Positions 51,001 to 57,000 of a stretch of 64,000 bases of DNA are shown piece after piece. The position numbers were made by a program. Position 1 is the first letter of the stretch. Every line of letters starts with the position of its first letter. The stretch comes from an uncultured Pseudomonadota bacterium (lineage in GTDB: Bacteria; Babelota; Babeliae; Babelales; JAUPTZ01): positions 1 through 64,000 of the forward strand of contig CAYSBJ010000002.1 in the NCBI GenBank assembly GCA_964429275.1. The letters run 5' to 3'.

Positions 51001-54000
51001 CGGCATGCCCTTCAGCATTTCTTCGCATTATTGCTTTACGTCTAGAGTTAACGATGACGCAAAGCGAGATCGATGATTTTTCGGGGTTGTTTTACTGTCT
51101 TGATGGAGTTACGCTTCAGGCTGTTGGATTTGTTTGGGCAAATAAAGAAGGGGATGTTGATTGTGTATCCCGTAAAAAAGTCTTGATAGGGATGCTTCTT
51201 CACTACAAAAGGCACTTTTATCCAGGTACGCCGTACATGCTTTTTGCGTACGATAAGGAACTTATAATGAAGCTGCTGCGGTTAAGTACGACTTCATGGC
51301 TTGGTCGTGCAACGGCAGCATGCCATGCATGTATGCTCGCGGAAAGTAAGCTGAATTCCTCTGTTTATGGTATTTTGAAGTTTATGCCTACTGGTCCCCT
51401 TTTATTTTCGGAGAGTCGAGATTTTTTTTATAAAGCAACTCGGATTCAGCAGCACTATTTTATTAAAAGCCCTAGCTCTGTATATACCACTTGGAGTGAT
51501 TTTATTGCTGATCTTGATAAGTTTTTTGATGATGAAAACCGTCCGCGAGTACATGCAGCCTTTGAGCTTCTAGCAAGCCGCTTGCAGCAGTTGTTGAAAG
51601 CGGCATTCTTTGCAGATATGGCAACCGCTTTTTCTGTGGTTCTTGATGAATTAACTCAGAGCGAATATCACGATATATTTGCTCGTGAAGAGATCGTGAC
51701 GTGTATTGCGAAGTGGCGTGCTGCTTTGTATAAGGGGTGGTATGGAGCGTCGGTAAAAGCCTAAGCTTCTTCTCCCGGCGCTTTGCCGAGTACTGTTTTT
51801 ACAAACAGATCCCACTTGATTTTGACCCCTTTGCCTCTGAGGAGTGGTAGCTCTGCACGCTCATTACAGCTGCTGCGGAGTGCCAAAGTTCCTTGGTAGC
51901 AGCGCAACGCATCTGCAGTGTGGAGCGTGACGAAGTCGGCCACGGCCTGGGCATCTTCTCCGTCCATGATGTAAGCATGGTACGCAACGCGAACGAGCTG
52001 CATCATCAATTCCTCGTTATCAAGTACATGGTCGACCGGCTTTTCAAACGAATAGCGGATGATTGACTGGTGGTAGTGGCAGATCAGTCCAATAAAGGAA
52101 CGTAATCTTCCTGGGTGTTTGCCATCGCTGCTTGGCGTAATGGCCATGCGTGCGCACAAAGTACCCAGTTCTTCGGTGAACTGATGGCGCGGCAATGGTT
52201 GGCGGCGATGATGCAAAATCAGCATTATGGCACGAACAAAGCAGGCCTGTTCCCCATCAAGAGTAAGGGTCCACTCGGTAGCCTGTGGCACTTGTTGCGT
52301 TGCTGGTATGTTAAGCGTAATTGCCATTGGCGCAAACGGTTCTTCTGGGTCTCCCGAGCCGGCATACCAAAACGGGATGTAGACTGATCCGCCATGCGGC
52401 AGTTGGATAGTGGTCGGCTTTGTTTGGTAGTAGTCAATTTGTGCAAGGAGCGCATTAAGGTATTCGGTACGCTGTGCATCAGTGGTGTTGGTGATGAGCG
52501 AGGCGAGAGCGCCACCTTTTTGGCTCAAGATAATAAATTGAGCGGCGCATTGGTCTGGCGCTTGTGTTAGATAGGTTTCAAGGCCAATACGTTCTGGTGT
52601 GCTTAGCACAGGCATGCTGTAGAGTGAGCATTGGTCACCACCCTGGGTGAGTTTCAGACGTGCTATTAATGTTTCAAGCGCCTCGCGTACGGTGGCAAGG
52701 TCAGCAGTTTTTTGTTGGCTCACAGTCCAGGCAAGCTGGGCGAGCTTAAAATAAAATTCTTGGCATGGGGTTACGGTTACTGCTGGCGCGATAAAGTGGC
52801 GGATGGTGCGGCGTAATGAGCGTGACTTGCACAGTTGAAAGCTGAGGCCGTCGTAGTTAAATTGTACATTGACGGTGCCACGGATGCCTTCAAATGGCTG
52901 ATTTTTGTTTCCTGCTCCTTTGTATCCCCATCGAAGCTGATAAGTCAGTTCAATAGGGGCTGCTTCTTCATATCCATTTTTTGAAATATTTTTCTTGCGC
53001 TTTGGTAATTGGATAGAAAAAGCTATTTCGCGGGCGTGATCGAAGTTAAGACCGTCGTTGATTGCTTCAGTGAGCTCGGCATTACCGGTCAGAAGAGGGA
53101 TAAGAATGGGGGCGCTCAGGGCTAGTGGCCACTGAGTAGCATCGCTCGTGAGCGGCGTACAGAGTGCCGTCGCGATAAGGAGGAGGTATTTTTTCATAAG
53201 AATGCCTTTGTATTAAGGTTTTACGTATGTGTCTAACCTAGGGGTAAATGGCAGAAATGTCAATTGCTAGGCGCCTGGGGTAGTCTTTGTCGCTCCCCCA
53301 AAGTTGCAATAATGCCTCGTAAGATCGCTCCGTGTTTCATAATGACATGGCGCATGTAGCGGACCAAGCGTTCTGCCCGTTCGGGGGGGTATATAAGCCG
53401 TGGGGTAGCGTAATTCGGGTCTGTGGCTGGATTGAAGAGTGGGTCGTATTCTGCATCTCCCTCGATGGTACAGTAAACAATAACAGGCCCGGTGGCGGGA
53501 TTGCCGTGAACCGAAAGGGGATTTATCGTTATGGCTTCTTCATCAATTTTGGGTAGCCACGGGGCTTCTTCATGCGCTGCTTCCCAGCCGTTTCGTAGGG
53601 ATTTAAGGCGACCGAGGCGTTCTTGTTTACAGTCTACGACAAACAATAGATCGAATGGTTTACTGCTTACCTTAATCGCTGGTTCGAGCGGAAGATTGTT
53701 GAGATATCCCCCGTCGACAAGCGTGATGTTTTTAACATGTGCATGAGGAGAATCGATTGCTTGAAAGCGGGGGTTTGCAATTTTTGCGGCGGTTATTTTG
53801 GTATTGCTCCAGTTTCTGGTTTGCCAGCTTTGGGGAAGAATTTTGTCTACGAACGGCTGAAGCTTTTCTGGCACCCGTTCGAGGGCATCCCGAATACTTA
53901 TGGAGAACGATGAGCCAAAAATGCCGAGCAAGTAGCAAAGACGGGGGGGTGGGGGAGATGAAAGCTGCTGATAGGTATGGAATTGTGCTCCAAGAAGGTG

Positions 54001-57000
54001 AATAGGAACGGTAAGATGATCGTTCAGGAGTTCGAGGGCAAAAGGAGAGACTATCCCCCACTCATAGGTATCGGTTGGTTGTGGTCGTGTTACGGCGGTT
54101 CCGAGAATTAAGGGGTACTTTTCTGGGGTCATGGCGCGTGCAGCGTCCTCCATACTCAACTCAAGAGCGTTTGTGTGGAGCGGCTTGAGTAAGGTATAGG
54201 CCAAGCTGATGCCGTACAAATCAATGCCACTTATGGAGAGGCGATGCGCTTTTTTTGTCGCGATGACGGTAGCAAAGTCATGGTATTGTTCTGCGAGGTG
54301 ATGAATAAGGCCCTGCGATAACCAAGTGATTAATTTGCTGGTATATGCGGTTGGTGTTTCACCGCTGAGTAGCCACGGGAACAAGAACCAGGTGGTGCCA
54401 GAAAGACCAAGGCACGTCTGGATGAGAGGAAGGACGCCGAGTTCTTCGAGCCCACTCATCACACCGGCGATAGTGAGCATGGCGCGAAAGCCGCCGCCAC
54501 TCGCACAGAGGCCGATAGTGAGGGGGCGGGCAAGCGCATGACCACAGTATGCCTCTTGAGTTATATGTGTTTGTATAAAGCGTTTTTGGAGGAATTCTTT
54601 TTCTGCTACGAGCGCGGCACGGGTTAGTGCGGTCGGCGTATAATGGTGCGGCGGTGCATATGTGTTCCAGGTCTGCGTATCAAAAAGTTGAGGAGTGCCT
54701 TCTATTTGATTAATGCAGGCGGTATAGTCAGTGGCCTTAAATAGGCCGAGCATTGCCTTTGCGGCGACACGCATGTCTTTGGTTGGAGAAAGTTCTTCCG
54801 AGCTGAGTGCGACACACAAATGACGAACGGAAAGAAATTGAGGGGAAGGAAGCTCCAGGTGAAGTGCATTGTTGTTAGGGAGATAGTAGGGGCCATTAAT
54901 GCGGGTGCCGACAGTCCCTTTGGTATAGTAAAGGGCTGCGTAAAGTGGAATAGGCGATTGATTTGCTACCCGCAGCATACTGGGGTCAAGAAACCAGGCA
55001 TTTACGTTGTTGGTAATGAGGAAAACACAGATTATTAGAGAGGATTTATTCATGGTCGGATGGTAGCACAAAACCTTTTGCAGCTCAATGAAACGGGGAA
55101 AAATTGACTTTGATAGGGGGTGGTTGTTACAACTGTGCCGCACGTACAATCGAACAATTTAAGGAGATAGAACATGAAAAGAATACTGATGGCCCTGCTT
55201 GCGGTCACAAGCGTTATGGCCTGTCAGGCAGTATCGCGCGAAGTGAACGCTATTCGGGTGGATGCGGTGGAGACCTTGTGTCGGGTGCTGCCGGACACCT
55301 TTGTTTCTCGCAATTTGCTTGCTGATGCTATGCAATTCATTGAAAAAGAGTTGGACCCCGCCGTTCACCAAAAACTACTTGAGTTGCAAGATGAAGCGGA
55401 CAAGTTGAATGCGATAAAAACGCAGATGTTGGCAATTCCAAATGTTACGGCTGATAGTCCTGCGGTTCAAAGCATTGATGTTATGCTCAATGATATAGCG
55501 AAAAAATTTAATGATTTGCTCTATAACGGCGGATTCTTTAATTGGCGTACCTTGTTGTCAGTCGGGATTGGCCTTAATACTGGGCTGTATTGTGGATTAA
55601 ACTACAAGAAAAACGGCGTAACAGCCGTGGGTAAAGCATGGCATGGCGTAGTGGTTGGCTTTGTTGCGGCAATGTTGCTGGAATTTTCACTTCGCGGTCG
55701 CAAAGCGTTGATTGCCGGCAGCGTTTTTAATGTTATGGCCATGGTTGCTGAAGTTATGTACAAGTTTTTTAGCGCCCTTTTTGGTAAATCTGGCACGGGA
55801 GATCGTTGGCTTTCAACGTTGGAAATACAAATGCGTAGCTGGGGTTCACAGCTTGATAAAATCTTTAATAATAAGTGGGGAGCCCTTGGTATTACTGGTG
55901 TTGCGATGCTGGGCGCAGGGCTTATTATAATTAAGCGACAGCGTGATCTGAATCTGCTAAAAACAGCATAAATTTTTCTATAAAAGTAAAAAGGGGCGAC
56001 ATGTCTGTGAGGCATGTCGCCCCTTTTTTTTAGTGAAACCCTTGTTTTTCGTTACTCATTGTCATTAATCTAGTGATGTATTGATTCAAGACCATCTTGA
56101 TACAAAACAATTTTAAAAGGCTTCGAGAAACCCTGAAGGCGCTTTTAAAATAAGGTTTTTGCGCATAGCAAGAAGACTCAGGGTCATACATATAGTAACT
56201 ATTTAAAAGGAGATACGTATATGAAACGTATTATGATGTTAGTACTCAGCCTTGCTACAATAAGTGGCGTACATGCTGCTACGACTGCACCTGCAACAGG
56301 AACCACTGCACCAGCTACTGAAAAAGGCTACATGGGTAGAGCGTGGGATGGAACGAAGGGTTTCTTCAAAGAACACGTTCAAGACTATCACATGGCTACT
56401 GATATAGATGAAAAGGATAATGCTCGTCGCAATGCTCGCATCCGTCGTGGTGTAGGTTCAGCGTTGGGCGCTGGTGGGCTTGGTCTTGCTGCAGCTGAAA
56501 TTGCGATGAACAGAAACTTTTTCTTGGAGTTCTTGTCTAAGTATATCAAGAATGAAGGTGCGCAGAATATTATGAATAAGCGTACTACTAAACTTCTTGC
56601 TTCATTGCTTCAAGCAGTCGCACTTGACGAACTTGGCGGATTAGTTAATGGTCAAGGCGGACGTCGTGGTCTTGTTTCAGGTGGTATTCGTGATGGCTAC
56701 GCCTGGGGTAAGAAGAAATGGGGTAAGAAGTCTTCTGAATCTACGGAGCCTGTGAAATCTTAAGCTCTACTTAGATACTCTTTACAGAAAAGCCCTGGTG
56801 AAAACCGGGGCTTTTCCCTTTTTAGCCCAAAACTCTTCTCTTTTCCCTTCTCCTTCTTCCACTCTATAGTCAAATGTGTCCAAAATAAGCAGACAATGGT
56901 AGCTGTCATTTTGAACTGCATTGACTCTAGTGTGATCGGCCGGTGGCGATCGCGTACCTATAACCGTTGCAGTATGCAACGTATCATTGCGGGGAGGAAT

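What a model noticed while it worked through the whole genome (the two positions that open the first line are those of the whole stretch)
53260..55053. Two secreted eukaryote-type cytosolic-PLA2 (PLA2_B) lipases; the family is almost confined to Babelales among bacteria
g00490 (C2:53260-55053, 597 aa) and g00695 (C2:295286-297196, 636 aa) have the lysophospholipase/cPLA2 catalytic domain PF01735 with the GGGxR oxyanion motif, the G-x-S-G nucleophile elbow (GLSGT in g00490, SLSGG in g00695) and the D-G/A-G aspartate (LVDGGY; LVDAGH), preceded by signal peptides. The family is in 181 of 260 Babelales but in only 221 of 189,784 bacterial species genomes and 0 of 10,118 archaea, so four fifths of all bacterial carriers are Babelales: an old eukaryote-like lipase that marks this parasitic order and is a prime candidate for attacking host or vacuole membranes.
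Evidence so far: pfam.tsv PLA2_B 2.1e-15 (g00490, 180-477; call 79); relatives.tsv row PF01735; motifs read in the sequences; leaders; best non-Babelota hits are animal and fungal phospholipase A2/lysophospholipase.
(Added by a program. Inside this text positions count along the whole contig: contig position 1 is position 1 of the stretch shown here. "Call 12" and the like, gene names such as g00115 and contig names such as C1 are that model's own, and its searches are not shown. The text may have been shortened before it was handed on; [...] marks where a part breaks off. The agent that wrote the report below was given it as the finding of a first reader that could run no searches.)

Follow-up and report, generated by a model that had tools for sequence, protein, structure and literature searches.

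The report
Secreted cPLA2-type lipase of Dependentiae
This small parasitic bacterium encodes two exported enzymes built like the animal membrane-lipid-cutting enzyme cPLA2, from a family found in most of its phylum and in none of the other bacteria sampled, so it is a good candidate tool for breaking or harvesting host membranes.

Summary
Window 53260-55053 (-) encodes a 597-aa protein with a hydrophobic leader, a beta-sandwich domain and a PLA2_B/cPLA2 catalytic domain (Pfam 53.6 bits, cut-off 23). Its GGGxR, GLSGT Ser218 and VDGG Asp447 align with Gly197/198-Arg200, Ser228 and Asp549 of human cPLA2-alpha. A 25%-identical paralog lies at contig position 295286-297196.

The AlphaFold model (pLDDT 88.5) matches human cPLA2 alpha and delta (Foldseek E 4e-28 and 8e-24). 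Patatin-like effectors match only at 2e-5 or worse.

The family is in 204 of 261 genomes of the order, which is the whole phylum as held, and in 19 of 21 families. It was found in 0 of 210 genomes of 182 other families and 0 of 14 control genomes. Catalytic residues are invariant in 146 metagenomic representatives. dN/dS is 0.21.

New here:
- Half of the family carries a lineage-specific N-terminal beta-sandwich that is not detectably a C2 domain.
- The genome has secretins and T2SS-type ATPases.
- The genome lacks a ketoacyl synthase, but lipase presence does not track that loss across the phylum.

Function (a secreted Ser-Asp phospholipase A or lysophospholipase acting on host membranes) and eukaryotic origin remain inferences. 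The small tree cannot give the direction of transfer.

The parts
53260..55053 (-). CDS of the 597-aa PLA2_B/cPLA2-type lipase (P0001), stop codon included
   Evidence: intact orthologs in 6 of 6 genomes of the GTDB family; dN/dS 0.21 against the 89%-identical ortholog
54997..55053 (-). Residues 1-19, Sec-type leader MNKSSLIICVFLITNNVNA, with a likely cut after VNA
   Evidence: Read in the sequence. Aligned homologs end their leaders in A/G/S/C followed by [WG][FL]L. The hydropathy heuristic is positive. pLDDT is under 50 for residues 1-19. No SignalP run.
54664..54990 (-). Residues 22-130, nine-stranded beta-sandwich domain with no assignable family
   Evidence: The domain model has pLDDT 93.4. 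The best fold matches are generic: VIA Z 7.1 and Foldseek E 5.5e-3, with the cPLA2 C2 domain 1rlw only at E 0.094. A domain HMM hits 75 of 146 Dependentiae-type representatives and 0 of 4 eukaryote-type rows.
54523..54663 (-). Residues 131-177, linker with a long helix (149-170) leading into the catalytic domain
   Evidence: secondary structure of the model; R158 invariant in the close family
53623..54522 (-). Residues 178-477, PLA2_B (cPLA2-type, patatin-clan) catalytic domain
   Evidence: Pfam; HMMER against PDB; Foldseek 1cjy E 3.7e-28; whole-genome match at 53623-54516
54484..54498 (-). GGGFR (G186-R190): oxyanion-hole glycines and the phosphate-binding arginine
   Evidence: Aligns with G196-G198 and R200 of 1cjy. 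G186 and G187 are invariant, and G188 and R190 are kept in at least 90% of 146 sequences. Coordinates checked.
54394..54408 (-). GLSGT nucleophile elbow, Ser218
   Evidence: aligns with GLSGS Ser228 of 1cjy; S218 and G219 invariant in 146 sequences
53707..53718 (-). VDGG, Asp447 of the Ser-Asp dyad
   Evidence: Aligns with VVDSG Asp549 of 1cjy. That local HMMER stretch is not significant on its own. D447 is invariant in 146 sequences..
53794..53913 (-). Residues 381-420, short low-confidence stretch between the GSSFS helix and Asp447; candidate lid or cap, much shorter than in cPLA2-alpha
   Evidence: The pLDDT blocks here are 58, 68, 80 and 62. About 59 residues separate query residue 388 and D447, against about 147 between residues 402 and 549 of 1cjy. 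The lid role is an inference.
53263..53622 (-). Residues 478-597, C-terminal part of the fold, conserved within the Dependentiae family
   Evidence: P501, P523, Y527 and Y555 are nearly invariant; pLDDT is mostly above 88
51761..53197 (-). Co-oriented 478-aa gene with a leader and no known family, 62 bases downstream; possibly co-transcribed
   Evidence: No Pfam family. No terminator-like site lies between the genes on the minus strand. It flanks the ortholog in G114 (96% identity), G115 (72%) and G116 (52%). A functional link is not shown.

Best explanation
The gene encodes an exported serine-aspartate acyl hydrolase of the cPLA2/PLA2_B family.

Shown:
- It has an intact cPLA2-type catalytic domain.
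- The gene is under purifying selection.
- It belongs to a multi-copy family conserved across Dependentiae.

Inferred mechanism:
1. The 19-residue leader takes the protein through Sec.
2. A type II secretion-like machine, which the genome encodes, may carry it across the outer membrane.
3. The N-terminal beta-sandwich sits where cPLA2 has its C2 domain and probably docks the enzyme on a membrane or surface.
4. Ser218, activated by Asp447, attacks an sn-1 or sn-2 acyl ester of a glycerophospholipid or lysophospholipid.
5. Gly186-188 form the oxyanion hole and Arg190 holds the phosphate.
6. A short flexible stretch (residues 381-420) acts as the lid.

The likely target is host-derived membrane, such as the phagosome or vacuole, or the host cell at exit, so the enzyme would help entry, escape or lysis. 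Which acyl position it cuts cannot be predicted.
For: Family and active site:
- PF01735 scores 53.6 bits against a cut-off of 23.
- HMMER hits human cPLA2 delta and alpha at 1e-12, with GGGFRAM and GLSG aligned residue for residue.
- The model has pLDDT 88.5 and pTM 0.83.
- Foldseek gives 1cjy E 3.7e-28 (TM 0.61) and 5iz5 8e-24. CapE, PlpD, VipD, ExoU, CapV and patatin score 2e-5 to 2e-2.
- G186, G187, S218, G219 and D447 are invariant, and G188 and R190 are kept in at least 90% of 146 representatives.

Real gene under selection:
- dN/dS is 0.21, and 0.12 in the catalytic core.
- Intact orthologs occur in 6 of 6 genomes of the GTDB family, with conserved neighbours.

Export:
- 112 of 145 representatives that begin with M pass a leader heuristic.
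- The genome has 3 secretin matches and 2 T2SS-type ATPase matches above cut-off.
- The only Patatin (PF01734) match in the genome is the paralog's own, below the cut-off; other lipase families were not searched.

Link to lifestyle:
- The family is in 204 of 261 genomes of a phylum described as protist symbionts (passage in PMC12644861).
- It is in 0 of 210 outside genomes.

Analogy: secreted phospholipases of intracellular protozoa aid egress (passages in PMC10513453).
Against: - No activity, localisation or expression data exist.
- A Sec leader alone places the protein in the periplasm. Passage through the outer membrane is assumed.
- P0001 is a divergent member. It scores 53.6 bits, where other members reach 149 bits.
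- 57 of 261 genomes lack the family, including all of f6 (0 of 7) and f8 (0 of 4), so it is not indispensable.
- The N-terminal domain has no recognisable lipid-binding relative.
- cPLA2-family members also act as lysophospholipases or transacylases (recalled), so the chemistry may not be membrane lysis.
Confidence: 0.6

Rival explanations
1. Lipid harvesting rather than membrane attack. The exported lipase frees fatty acids or lysolipids from host phospholipids. The bacterium cannot make fatty acids, so it activates them and builds them into its own membrane.
For: The 98%-complete genome has no ketoacyl synthase (0 matches, against 14 of 14 controls). It keeps one AMP-binding ligase, one ACP, PlsY and a PlsC-type acyltransferase. 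Such a cell needs outside acyl chains. This reading is compatible with the best explanation and may be a second role of the same enzyme.
Against: The predicted co-variation is absent. Families with strong ketoacyl synthase matches also carry the lipase:
- f17: 33 of 35 with the synthase, 32 of 35 with the lipase
- f18: 12 of 12 and 12 of 12
- f20: 3 of 4 and 4 of 4
- f15: 2 of 2 and 2 of 2

Families without the lipase also lack the synthase: f6 has 0 of 7 for both, and f8 has 0 of 4 for both. No fatty-acid importer was looked for.
Confidence: 0.25
2. Housekeeping enzyme of the bacterium's own envelope. It would be a periplasmic lysophospholipase or phospholipase that remodels or detoxifies the cell's own lipids and never reaches the host.
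For: A Sec leader is all that is seen. Nothing shows passage through the outer membrane. Presence in both synthase-positive and synthase-negative families fits a general envelope role.
Against: - The family is missing from 0 of 210 outside genomes and 0 of 14 controls, which manage their envelopes without it.
- It occurs in up to 5 matches per genome, with tandem arrays and fast divergence within one genus (89, 62, 57 and 52% identity). That is more typical of host-facing proteins.
- It sits among lineage-specific genes with leaders.
Confidence: 0.1
3. Acyltransferase or transacylase rather than hydrolase. It would use the same Ser-Asp dyad to move acyl chains between lipids, as some cPLA2-family and fungal PLB enzymes do (recalled), thereby editing host or bacterial lipids.
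For: It shares the catalytic machinery of a family whose members include transacylases (recalled, not tested). The short cap region differs from cPLA2-alpha.
Against: No feature that separates transferases from hydrolases was identified here. Hydrolysis is the default activity of the fold.
Confidence: 0.05

Closest known systems
Human cytosolic phospholipase A2 alpha and delta (group IVA and IVD; PDB 1cjy, 5iz5, 5ixc)
   Same: It has the same catalytic fold, and these are the best structural matches (E 3.7e-28 and 8e-24, TM about 0.6). The GGGxR, GxSG serine and DxG aspartate align residue for residue. Both have a two-part layout with a beta-sandwich in front of the catalytic domain.
   Different: - It is exported through a leader instead of being cytosolic.
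- No C2 domain is detectable: no Pfam C2 hit at E up to 1, and the C2 domain 1rlw scores only E 0.094.
- The cap region is about 59 residues against about 147.
- Identity is 15-18%.
- It is bacterial.
Fungal cPLA2-like proteins (Emericellopsis atlantica 'acyl transferase/acyl hydrolase/lysophospholipase', Xylariaceae 'cytosolic phospholipase A2 zeta')
   Same: These are the best named hits of the Dependentiae family profile (1.4e-96 at 343 bits, and 4.5e-89). They match the same part of the Pfam profile, positions 1 to about 350. By BLASTP the fungal protein is nearer to Dependentiae representatives (197 bits, 32% identity) than to the clam cPLA2-like protein (85 bits).
   Different: They are about 800 aa long, lack the Dependentiae N-terminal domain (0 of 4 eukaryote-type rows) and sit on a long branch. 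Only two such sequences were seen, and they were picked by similarity to the query profile.
Fungal secreted phospholipase B (PLB type of PF01735)
   Same: It belongs to the same Pfam family and is also an exported enzyme. The role of fungal PLB1 as a secreted virulence factor is recalled, not tested here.
   Different: A PLB-type protein (P0175) covers profile positions 1-487 of 491 at 413.7 bits. P0001 covers only 1-332. The family profile scores P0175 lowest of the four eukaryote-type rows, at 132 bits.
Bacterial patatin-like phospholipase effectors and defence lipases (ExoU, VipD, PlpD, CapV, CapE; PF01734)
   Same: They share the clan, the Ser-Asp dyad and the glycine-rich oxyanion loop. 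ExoU and VipD are bacterial lipases delivered to host cells (recalled).
   Different: - Fold matches are much weaker, at E 2e-5 to 1e-2 with TM below 0.3.
- PF01734 is below its cut-off in both paralogs: 14.7 and 23.7 bits against 27.7.
- ExoU and VipD are injected by type III and IV systems (recalled), not exported through a Sec leader.

Membership tests
PLA2_B / cPLA2 catalytic domain (PF01735) | Score above Pfam's curated cut-off | tested here: met
   P0001 scores 53.6 bits and the paralog 71.6 bits, against a cut-off of 23. Six-frame genome search gives 53.4 and 73 bits.
PLA2_B / cPLA2 catalytic domain (PF01735) | GGGxR loop (oxyanion hole and phosphate-binding Arg) | tested here: met
   G186-G188 and R190 align with G196-G198 and R200 of 1cjy. 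They are conserved in 146 sequences.
PLA2_B / cPLA2 catalytic domain (PF01735) | Nucleophilic serine in a G-x-S-G elbow | tested here: met
   GLSGT Ser218 aligns with GLSGS Ser228 of 1cjy. It is invariant in 146 sequences.
PLA2_B / cPLA2 catalytic domain (PF01735) | Catalytic aspartate in a D-x-G motif | tested here: met
   VDGG Asp447 is invariant in 146 sequences. It aligns with VVDSG Asp549 of 1cjy in a weak local stretch. The whole-fold match supports the register.
PLA2_B / cPLA2 catalytic domain (PF01735) | cPLA2-type fold rather than plain patatin fold | tested here: met
   All of Foldseek's top 10 are cPLA2 alpha or delta (E 4e-28 to 4e-19). The first patatin-like hit is at 2.3e-5.
PLA2_B / cPLA2 catalytic domain (PF01735) | Phospholipase or lysophospholipase activity | not testable with these tools
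   This needs an enzyme assay.
Group IV cytosolic PLA2 architecture (C2 + catalytic) | N-terminal Ca2+-dependent C2 domain | tested here: inconclusive
   There is no Pfam C2 hit at E up to 1. The N-terminal beta-sandwich model gives 1rlw only at Foldseek E 0.094 and TM 0.29. The best VIA hits are unrelated sandwiches at Z 7.1 or less.
Fungal phospholipase B type of PF01735 | Match over the whole 491-position profile | tested here: not met
   P0001 matches positions 1-332 only. The PLB-type P0175 matches 1-487 at 413.7 bits.
Patatin-like phospholipase (PF01734) | Score above Pfam's curated cut-off | tested here: not met
   P0001 scores 14.7 bits and the paralog 23.7 bits, against a cut-off of 27.7.
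Sec / type II secretion substrate | Cleavable N-terminal signal peptide | tested here: inconclusive
   The n-h-c layout and a VNA|W site are read by eye, and the hydropathy heuristic is positive. No trained predictor was available.
Sec / type II secretion substrate | Secretin and T2SS-type ATPase in the same genome | tested here: met
   There are 3 PF00263 matches and 2 PF00437 matches above cut-off. These could equally serve type IV pili.

The most novel reading that the evidence does not exclude
The Dependentiae enzymes may not be a recent borrowing from a host. They may be an ancient, slowly evolving core of the whole cPLA2/PLB superfamily.

Each eukaryote-type sequence seen here is closer to Dependentiae sequences than to the other eukaryote types: fungal 197 bits against 85, clam 121 against 85, and PLB-type 92 against 70.

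So some eukaryotic lineages, for example the fungal 'cPLA2 zeta-like' group, could have received the gene from Dependentiae-like parasites. The beta-sandwich plus lipase would then be the phylum's own invention for breaching host membranes.
Probability: 0.12. Interest if true: 0.8.

Novelty: new variant of a known kind. Interest (0 to 1): 0.55.

Why it matters
Dependentiae (Babelota, formerly TM6) are widespread obligate parasites or symbionts of protists. How they enter, exploit and lyse their hosts is largely unknown.

This exported, catalytically intact cPLA2-type lipase family is in about four fifths of the phylum's genomes, often in several copies. It was found in none of the other bacteria sampled. 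That gives a concrete molecule to test for host-membrane damage or lipid theft.

It also offers a case of ancient sharing of a 'eukaryotic' signalling-lipase fold between parasites and hosts. The fold here carries a new front domain in place of C2.

None of my eight full-text searches found a paper that describes this family in Dependentiae. One database record already names a homolog 'cytosolic phospholipase'.

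Tried and rejected
- Fatty-acid scavenging co-variation. I predicted the lipase would occur where ketoacyl synthase is lost. The order-wide searches show no such pattern.
- C2 identity of the N-terminal domain. No support from Pfam, Foldseek or VIA-align.
- Viral relatives. The sequence scan of viral contigs confirmed none of 37 pattern matches. The fold search of viral models found only patatin-like proteins of giant viruses at E 7e-5 or worse.
- Expression. No RNA holder was listed.
- A homolog search limited to residues 175-235 returned only 2 proteins and was wasted.
- The 150-row alignment was too diverse for the genome scan, so I used an 18-row one.
- The AU test under the mixture model did not finish in three calls. 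I replaced it with a 44-row LG+G4 test, which is more prone to long-branch effects.
- Earlier findings of the scan were not open.
- The 478-aa neighbour has no Pfam family and no usable Atlas hit.
- NCBIfam gave nothing above cut-off.
- No complex prediction was run, because no binding claim is made.

Full report
**The gene.** On the minus strand, 53260-55053 is an open frame of 597 codons from an ATG. A TTG at 55149 would add 32 residues. The ATG lines up with the starts of the orthologs in three same-genus genomes, and all of those begin with a hydrophobic leader. Pfam places residues 180-477 in PLA2_B (PF01735) at E 1.7e-14 and 53.6 bits, against a curated cut-off of 23. The match covers profile positions 1-332 of 491. 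The related Patatin model stays below its cut-off, at 14.7 against 27.7 bits. NCBIfam has nothing above cut-off.

**Catalytic residues.** HMMER against all PDB sequences finds only cPLA2 enzymes: delta (5ixc, 1.1e-12) and alpha (1cjy, 3.5e-12). In the printed alignment:
- SGGGFRAM (G186-G188, R190) lies on SGGGFRAM of cPLA2-alpha (G196-G198, R200).
- GLSGT (S218) lies on GLSGS (S228).
- A weak third stretch puts VDGG (D447) on VVDSG (D549).

That S228 and D549 are the dyad, and that R200, G197 and G198 bind the phosphate and form the oxyanion hole, is recalled from the cPLA2-alpha structure paper and not from a call. I checked the motif coordinates by translation.

**Structure.** With a 20-sequence alignment, AlphaFold2 gives a confident model: mean pLDDT 88.5 and pTM 0.83, with only the leader below 50.
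- All of Foldseek's first ten PDB hits are human cPLA2 alpha or delta (E 3.7e-28 to 4.2e-19, TM 0.55-0.63).
- The first patatin-like protein (CapE) comes at 2.3e-5. PlpD, VipD, ExoU, CapV and patatin follow at 8e-5 to 2e-2.

So the enzyme is of the cPLA2 type, not just of the patatin clan. Between the GSSFS helix and Asp447 there are about 59 residues, where cPLA2-alpha has about 147. This stretch (381-420) has the lowest confidence inside the domain. I read it as a short lid, which is an inference.

**The front domain.** Residues 22-130 fold as a nine-stranded beta-sandwich. Modelled alone with 29 sequences, it has pLDDT 93.4.
- It has no clear relative. The best VIA-align Z is 7.1 (PepT2 extracellular domain). 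TssJ-like, transthyretin-like and pilin domains follow at Z 5-6, which the tool's notes call the common background.
- Foldseek's best is E 5.5e-3. The cPLA2 C2 domain (1rlw) appears only at E 0.094 and TM 0.29.
- A profile of this domain hits 75 of the 146 Dependentiae-type representatives. Five of them carry two copies in tandem. It hits none of the four eukaryote-type proteins.
- In the window's genome, only the two lipases carry it at single-sequence sensitivity.

The domain stands where cPLA2 has C2, but I cannot call it a C2 domain.

**The paralog.** The genome is 1,207,998 bases in 8 contigs and 98% complete. It has exactly two PF01735 matches. The second is at C2:295286-297196, outside this window. 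It is 636 aa with a leader, the same front domain, SGGGFRAM, SLSGG and LVDAGH. The two are 25% identical over 594 columns (E 1e-51). In a tree of 150 sequences they fall in sister subclades of one well-supported clade of 19 rows (support 99). Both copies are present in same-genus genomes G114 and G115.

**A real gene under selection.**
- Orthologs of P0001 are intact in 6 of 6 genomes of the GTDB family. Identity is 89, 62, 57 and 52% within the genus and 28% in the other genus.
- Against the 89% ortholog, dN/dS (Nei-Gojobori) is 0.21 overall, 0.12 in the catalytic core, 0.27 in the first 175 residues and 0.42 in the tail.
- The flanking 478-aa and 265-aa genes also flank the ortholog in G114 and G115.

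**Distribution.**
- PF01735 is above cut-off in 204 of 261 genomes of the order. Among good genomes it is in 148 of 189, and it is in 110 of 145 genera. There are 1 to 5 matches per genome and several tandem arrays. None of 14 control genomes has a match.
- By GTDB family, 19 of 21 have at least one carrier. f6 (0 of 7) and f8 (0 of 4) have none. f19 has 2 of 8. f3 has 7 of 16, with only weak partial matches.
- Asking for the phylum returns the same 261 genomes, so in the held set the order is the phylum.
- A 'relatives' sample of 401 genomes at least 90% complete held 191 of the order (149 with a match). It also held 210 genomes from 182 other families, and none of those has a match.
- A motif scan of one genome for each of 185,579 species found 62 loci. 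By title, 28 are Babeliales, Dependentiae or TM6, and 19 are plain 'bacterium'. A further 13 are 'uncultured Pseudomonadota', one is 'Epsilonproteobacteria' and one is an 'Alteromonas' MAG.
- I checked 10 of those 15 oddly labelled loci. All lie in genomes of 0.8-1.5 Mb. Nine repeat the contig coordinates, or the best E-value with genome size, of genomes of the window's order. The tenth has no match and fits G051 by size only. They are mislabelled, not outside carriers.
- The same-genus ortholog is an NCBI record named 'cytosolic phospholipase [Candidatus Dependentiae bacterium]', which fixes the taxon.

**The wider family.** Scoring P0001 against 1.84 billion cluster representatives gives 1036 proteins at E up to 1e-3, 623 at 1e-10 and 69 at 1e-30.
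- I looked up ten of the best 150. All come from metagenomes or MAGs.
- All twenty that I scanned carry PF01735, and none has a C2 domain.
- Across the 146 representatives I aligned, G186, G187, S218, G219 and D447 are invariant. I had dropped six fragments of 400 aa or less before aligning.
- By a crude hydropathy rule, 112 of 145 that begin with M have a leader. Many of the rest are borderline or have doubtful starts, and a few look truly leaderless.

**Relation to eukaryotes.** The family profile finds four proteins outside Dependentiae:
- two fungal cPLA2-like proteins (1.4e-96 and 4.5e-89)
- a clam cPLA2-like fragment (4.5e-52)
- an unnamed protein (7e-33) that Pfam shows to be of the full-length PLB type

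By BLASTP, each of these is nearer to Dependentiae sequences than to the other three. Trees leave the backbone unresolved and put these rows on long branches. With 44 rows under LG+G4, the tree that holds the four together against 40 Dependentiae-type rows is not rejected. It was 40 log-likelihood units better than the quick free search, with p-AU 0.90. This fits a single old split. It cannot give a direction, because it rests on four rows that were chosen by their likeness to the query. Long branches may also pull them together. That the gene came from a eukaryote is the more economical reading of the distribution, but it is not shown.

**How it may reach a host.** The genome has three secretin matches and two T2SS-type ATPase matches above cut-off. 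A route across the outer membrane therefore exists, though these genes could serve pili instead. The gene sits in a run of lineage-specific genes with leaders and no Pfam family, next to mutS. No terminator-like site separates it from the 478-aa gene downstream.

**A rival that I tested.** The genome has no ketoacyl synthase. It does have an AMP-binding ligase, ACP, PlsY and a PlsC-type acyltransferase. That suggested the lipases feed host fatty acids into the bacterium's membrane. Across the phylum the synthase is present in 55 of 261 genomes, almost all in f13, f15, f17, f18 and f20. Those families carry the lipase just as often. The families without the lipase also lack the synthase. So there is no comparative support for scavenging, although the role is not excluded for this genome.

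**Literature.**
- Eight full-text searches found no paper on this family in Dependentiae.
- No paper in the library holds both 'Chromulinavorax' and 'lipase'.
- I read passages only of PMC11495043, PMC12644861, PMC13305018 and PMC10513453. I saw no supplements. Subscription papers on TM6 genomes are not in the library.

**Verdict.** The protein is a bacterial, exported variant of the cPLA2 catalytic family with a new front domain, conserved across a parasitic phylum. Its action on host membranes and its eukaryotic origin are reasonable but untested.

Noticed in passing
window 50661-59470: This is a run of genes with hydrophobic leaders and no Pfam family: 50661-51764(+), 51761-53197(-), 55174-55971(+), 56221-56763(+), 56967-57872(+) and 57893-59470(+). 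The last two end in a similar hydrophobic stretch followed by DY(A/V)KRG, as if they shared a C-terminal anchor.
   Followed up: partly
window 51761-53197 (-): The 478-aa gene just downstream of the lipase is better conserved within the genus than the lipase itself (96, 72 and 52% against 89, 62 and 57%). It keeps its place next to the lipase. It has no family and no usable Atlas hit.
   Followed up: partly
G000 whole genome; order-wide: The genome has no ketoacyl synthase but keeps ACP, one AMP-binding ligase, PlsY and PlsC. Across the phylum, strong synthase matches are confined to families f13, f15, f17, f18 and f20, so fatty-acid synthesis seems to have been lost in most of the phylum.
   Followed up: partly
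L039, L044, L050, L056, L058, L059, L073, L079, L084, L087: Public MAG records titled 'uncultured Pseudomonadota', 'Epsilonproteobacteria bacterium SP22' or 'Alteromonas naphthalenivorans' are genomes of 0.8-1.5 Mb. Nine of the ten repeat the coordinates or scores of genomes in the window's order, and L079 fits only by size. Their NCBI names look wrong.
   Followed up: yes
G143:C20:98552-102641; G198:C2:448833-451736; G187:C3:423892-426724; G186:C1:135669-138761; G133:C5:29594-32097: Other Dependentiae genomes carry two or three PLA2_B genes in tandem, a sign of local expansion of the family.
   Followed up: no
P0146, P0127 (metagenomic representatives): Some family members have no leader. They start instead with a region that gives weak ankyrin-repeat matches (Ank_2 at 21 bits, below the cut-off of 27.3), so they may reach the host by another route.
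   Followed up: no
family f3 genomes (e.g. G046-G054): In this family the only PF01735 signals are short, weak matches (E 1e-6 to 4e-9, for example to profile positions 1-53 or 290-410). They may be highly diverged or decaying copies.
   Followed up: no
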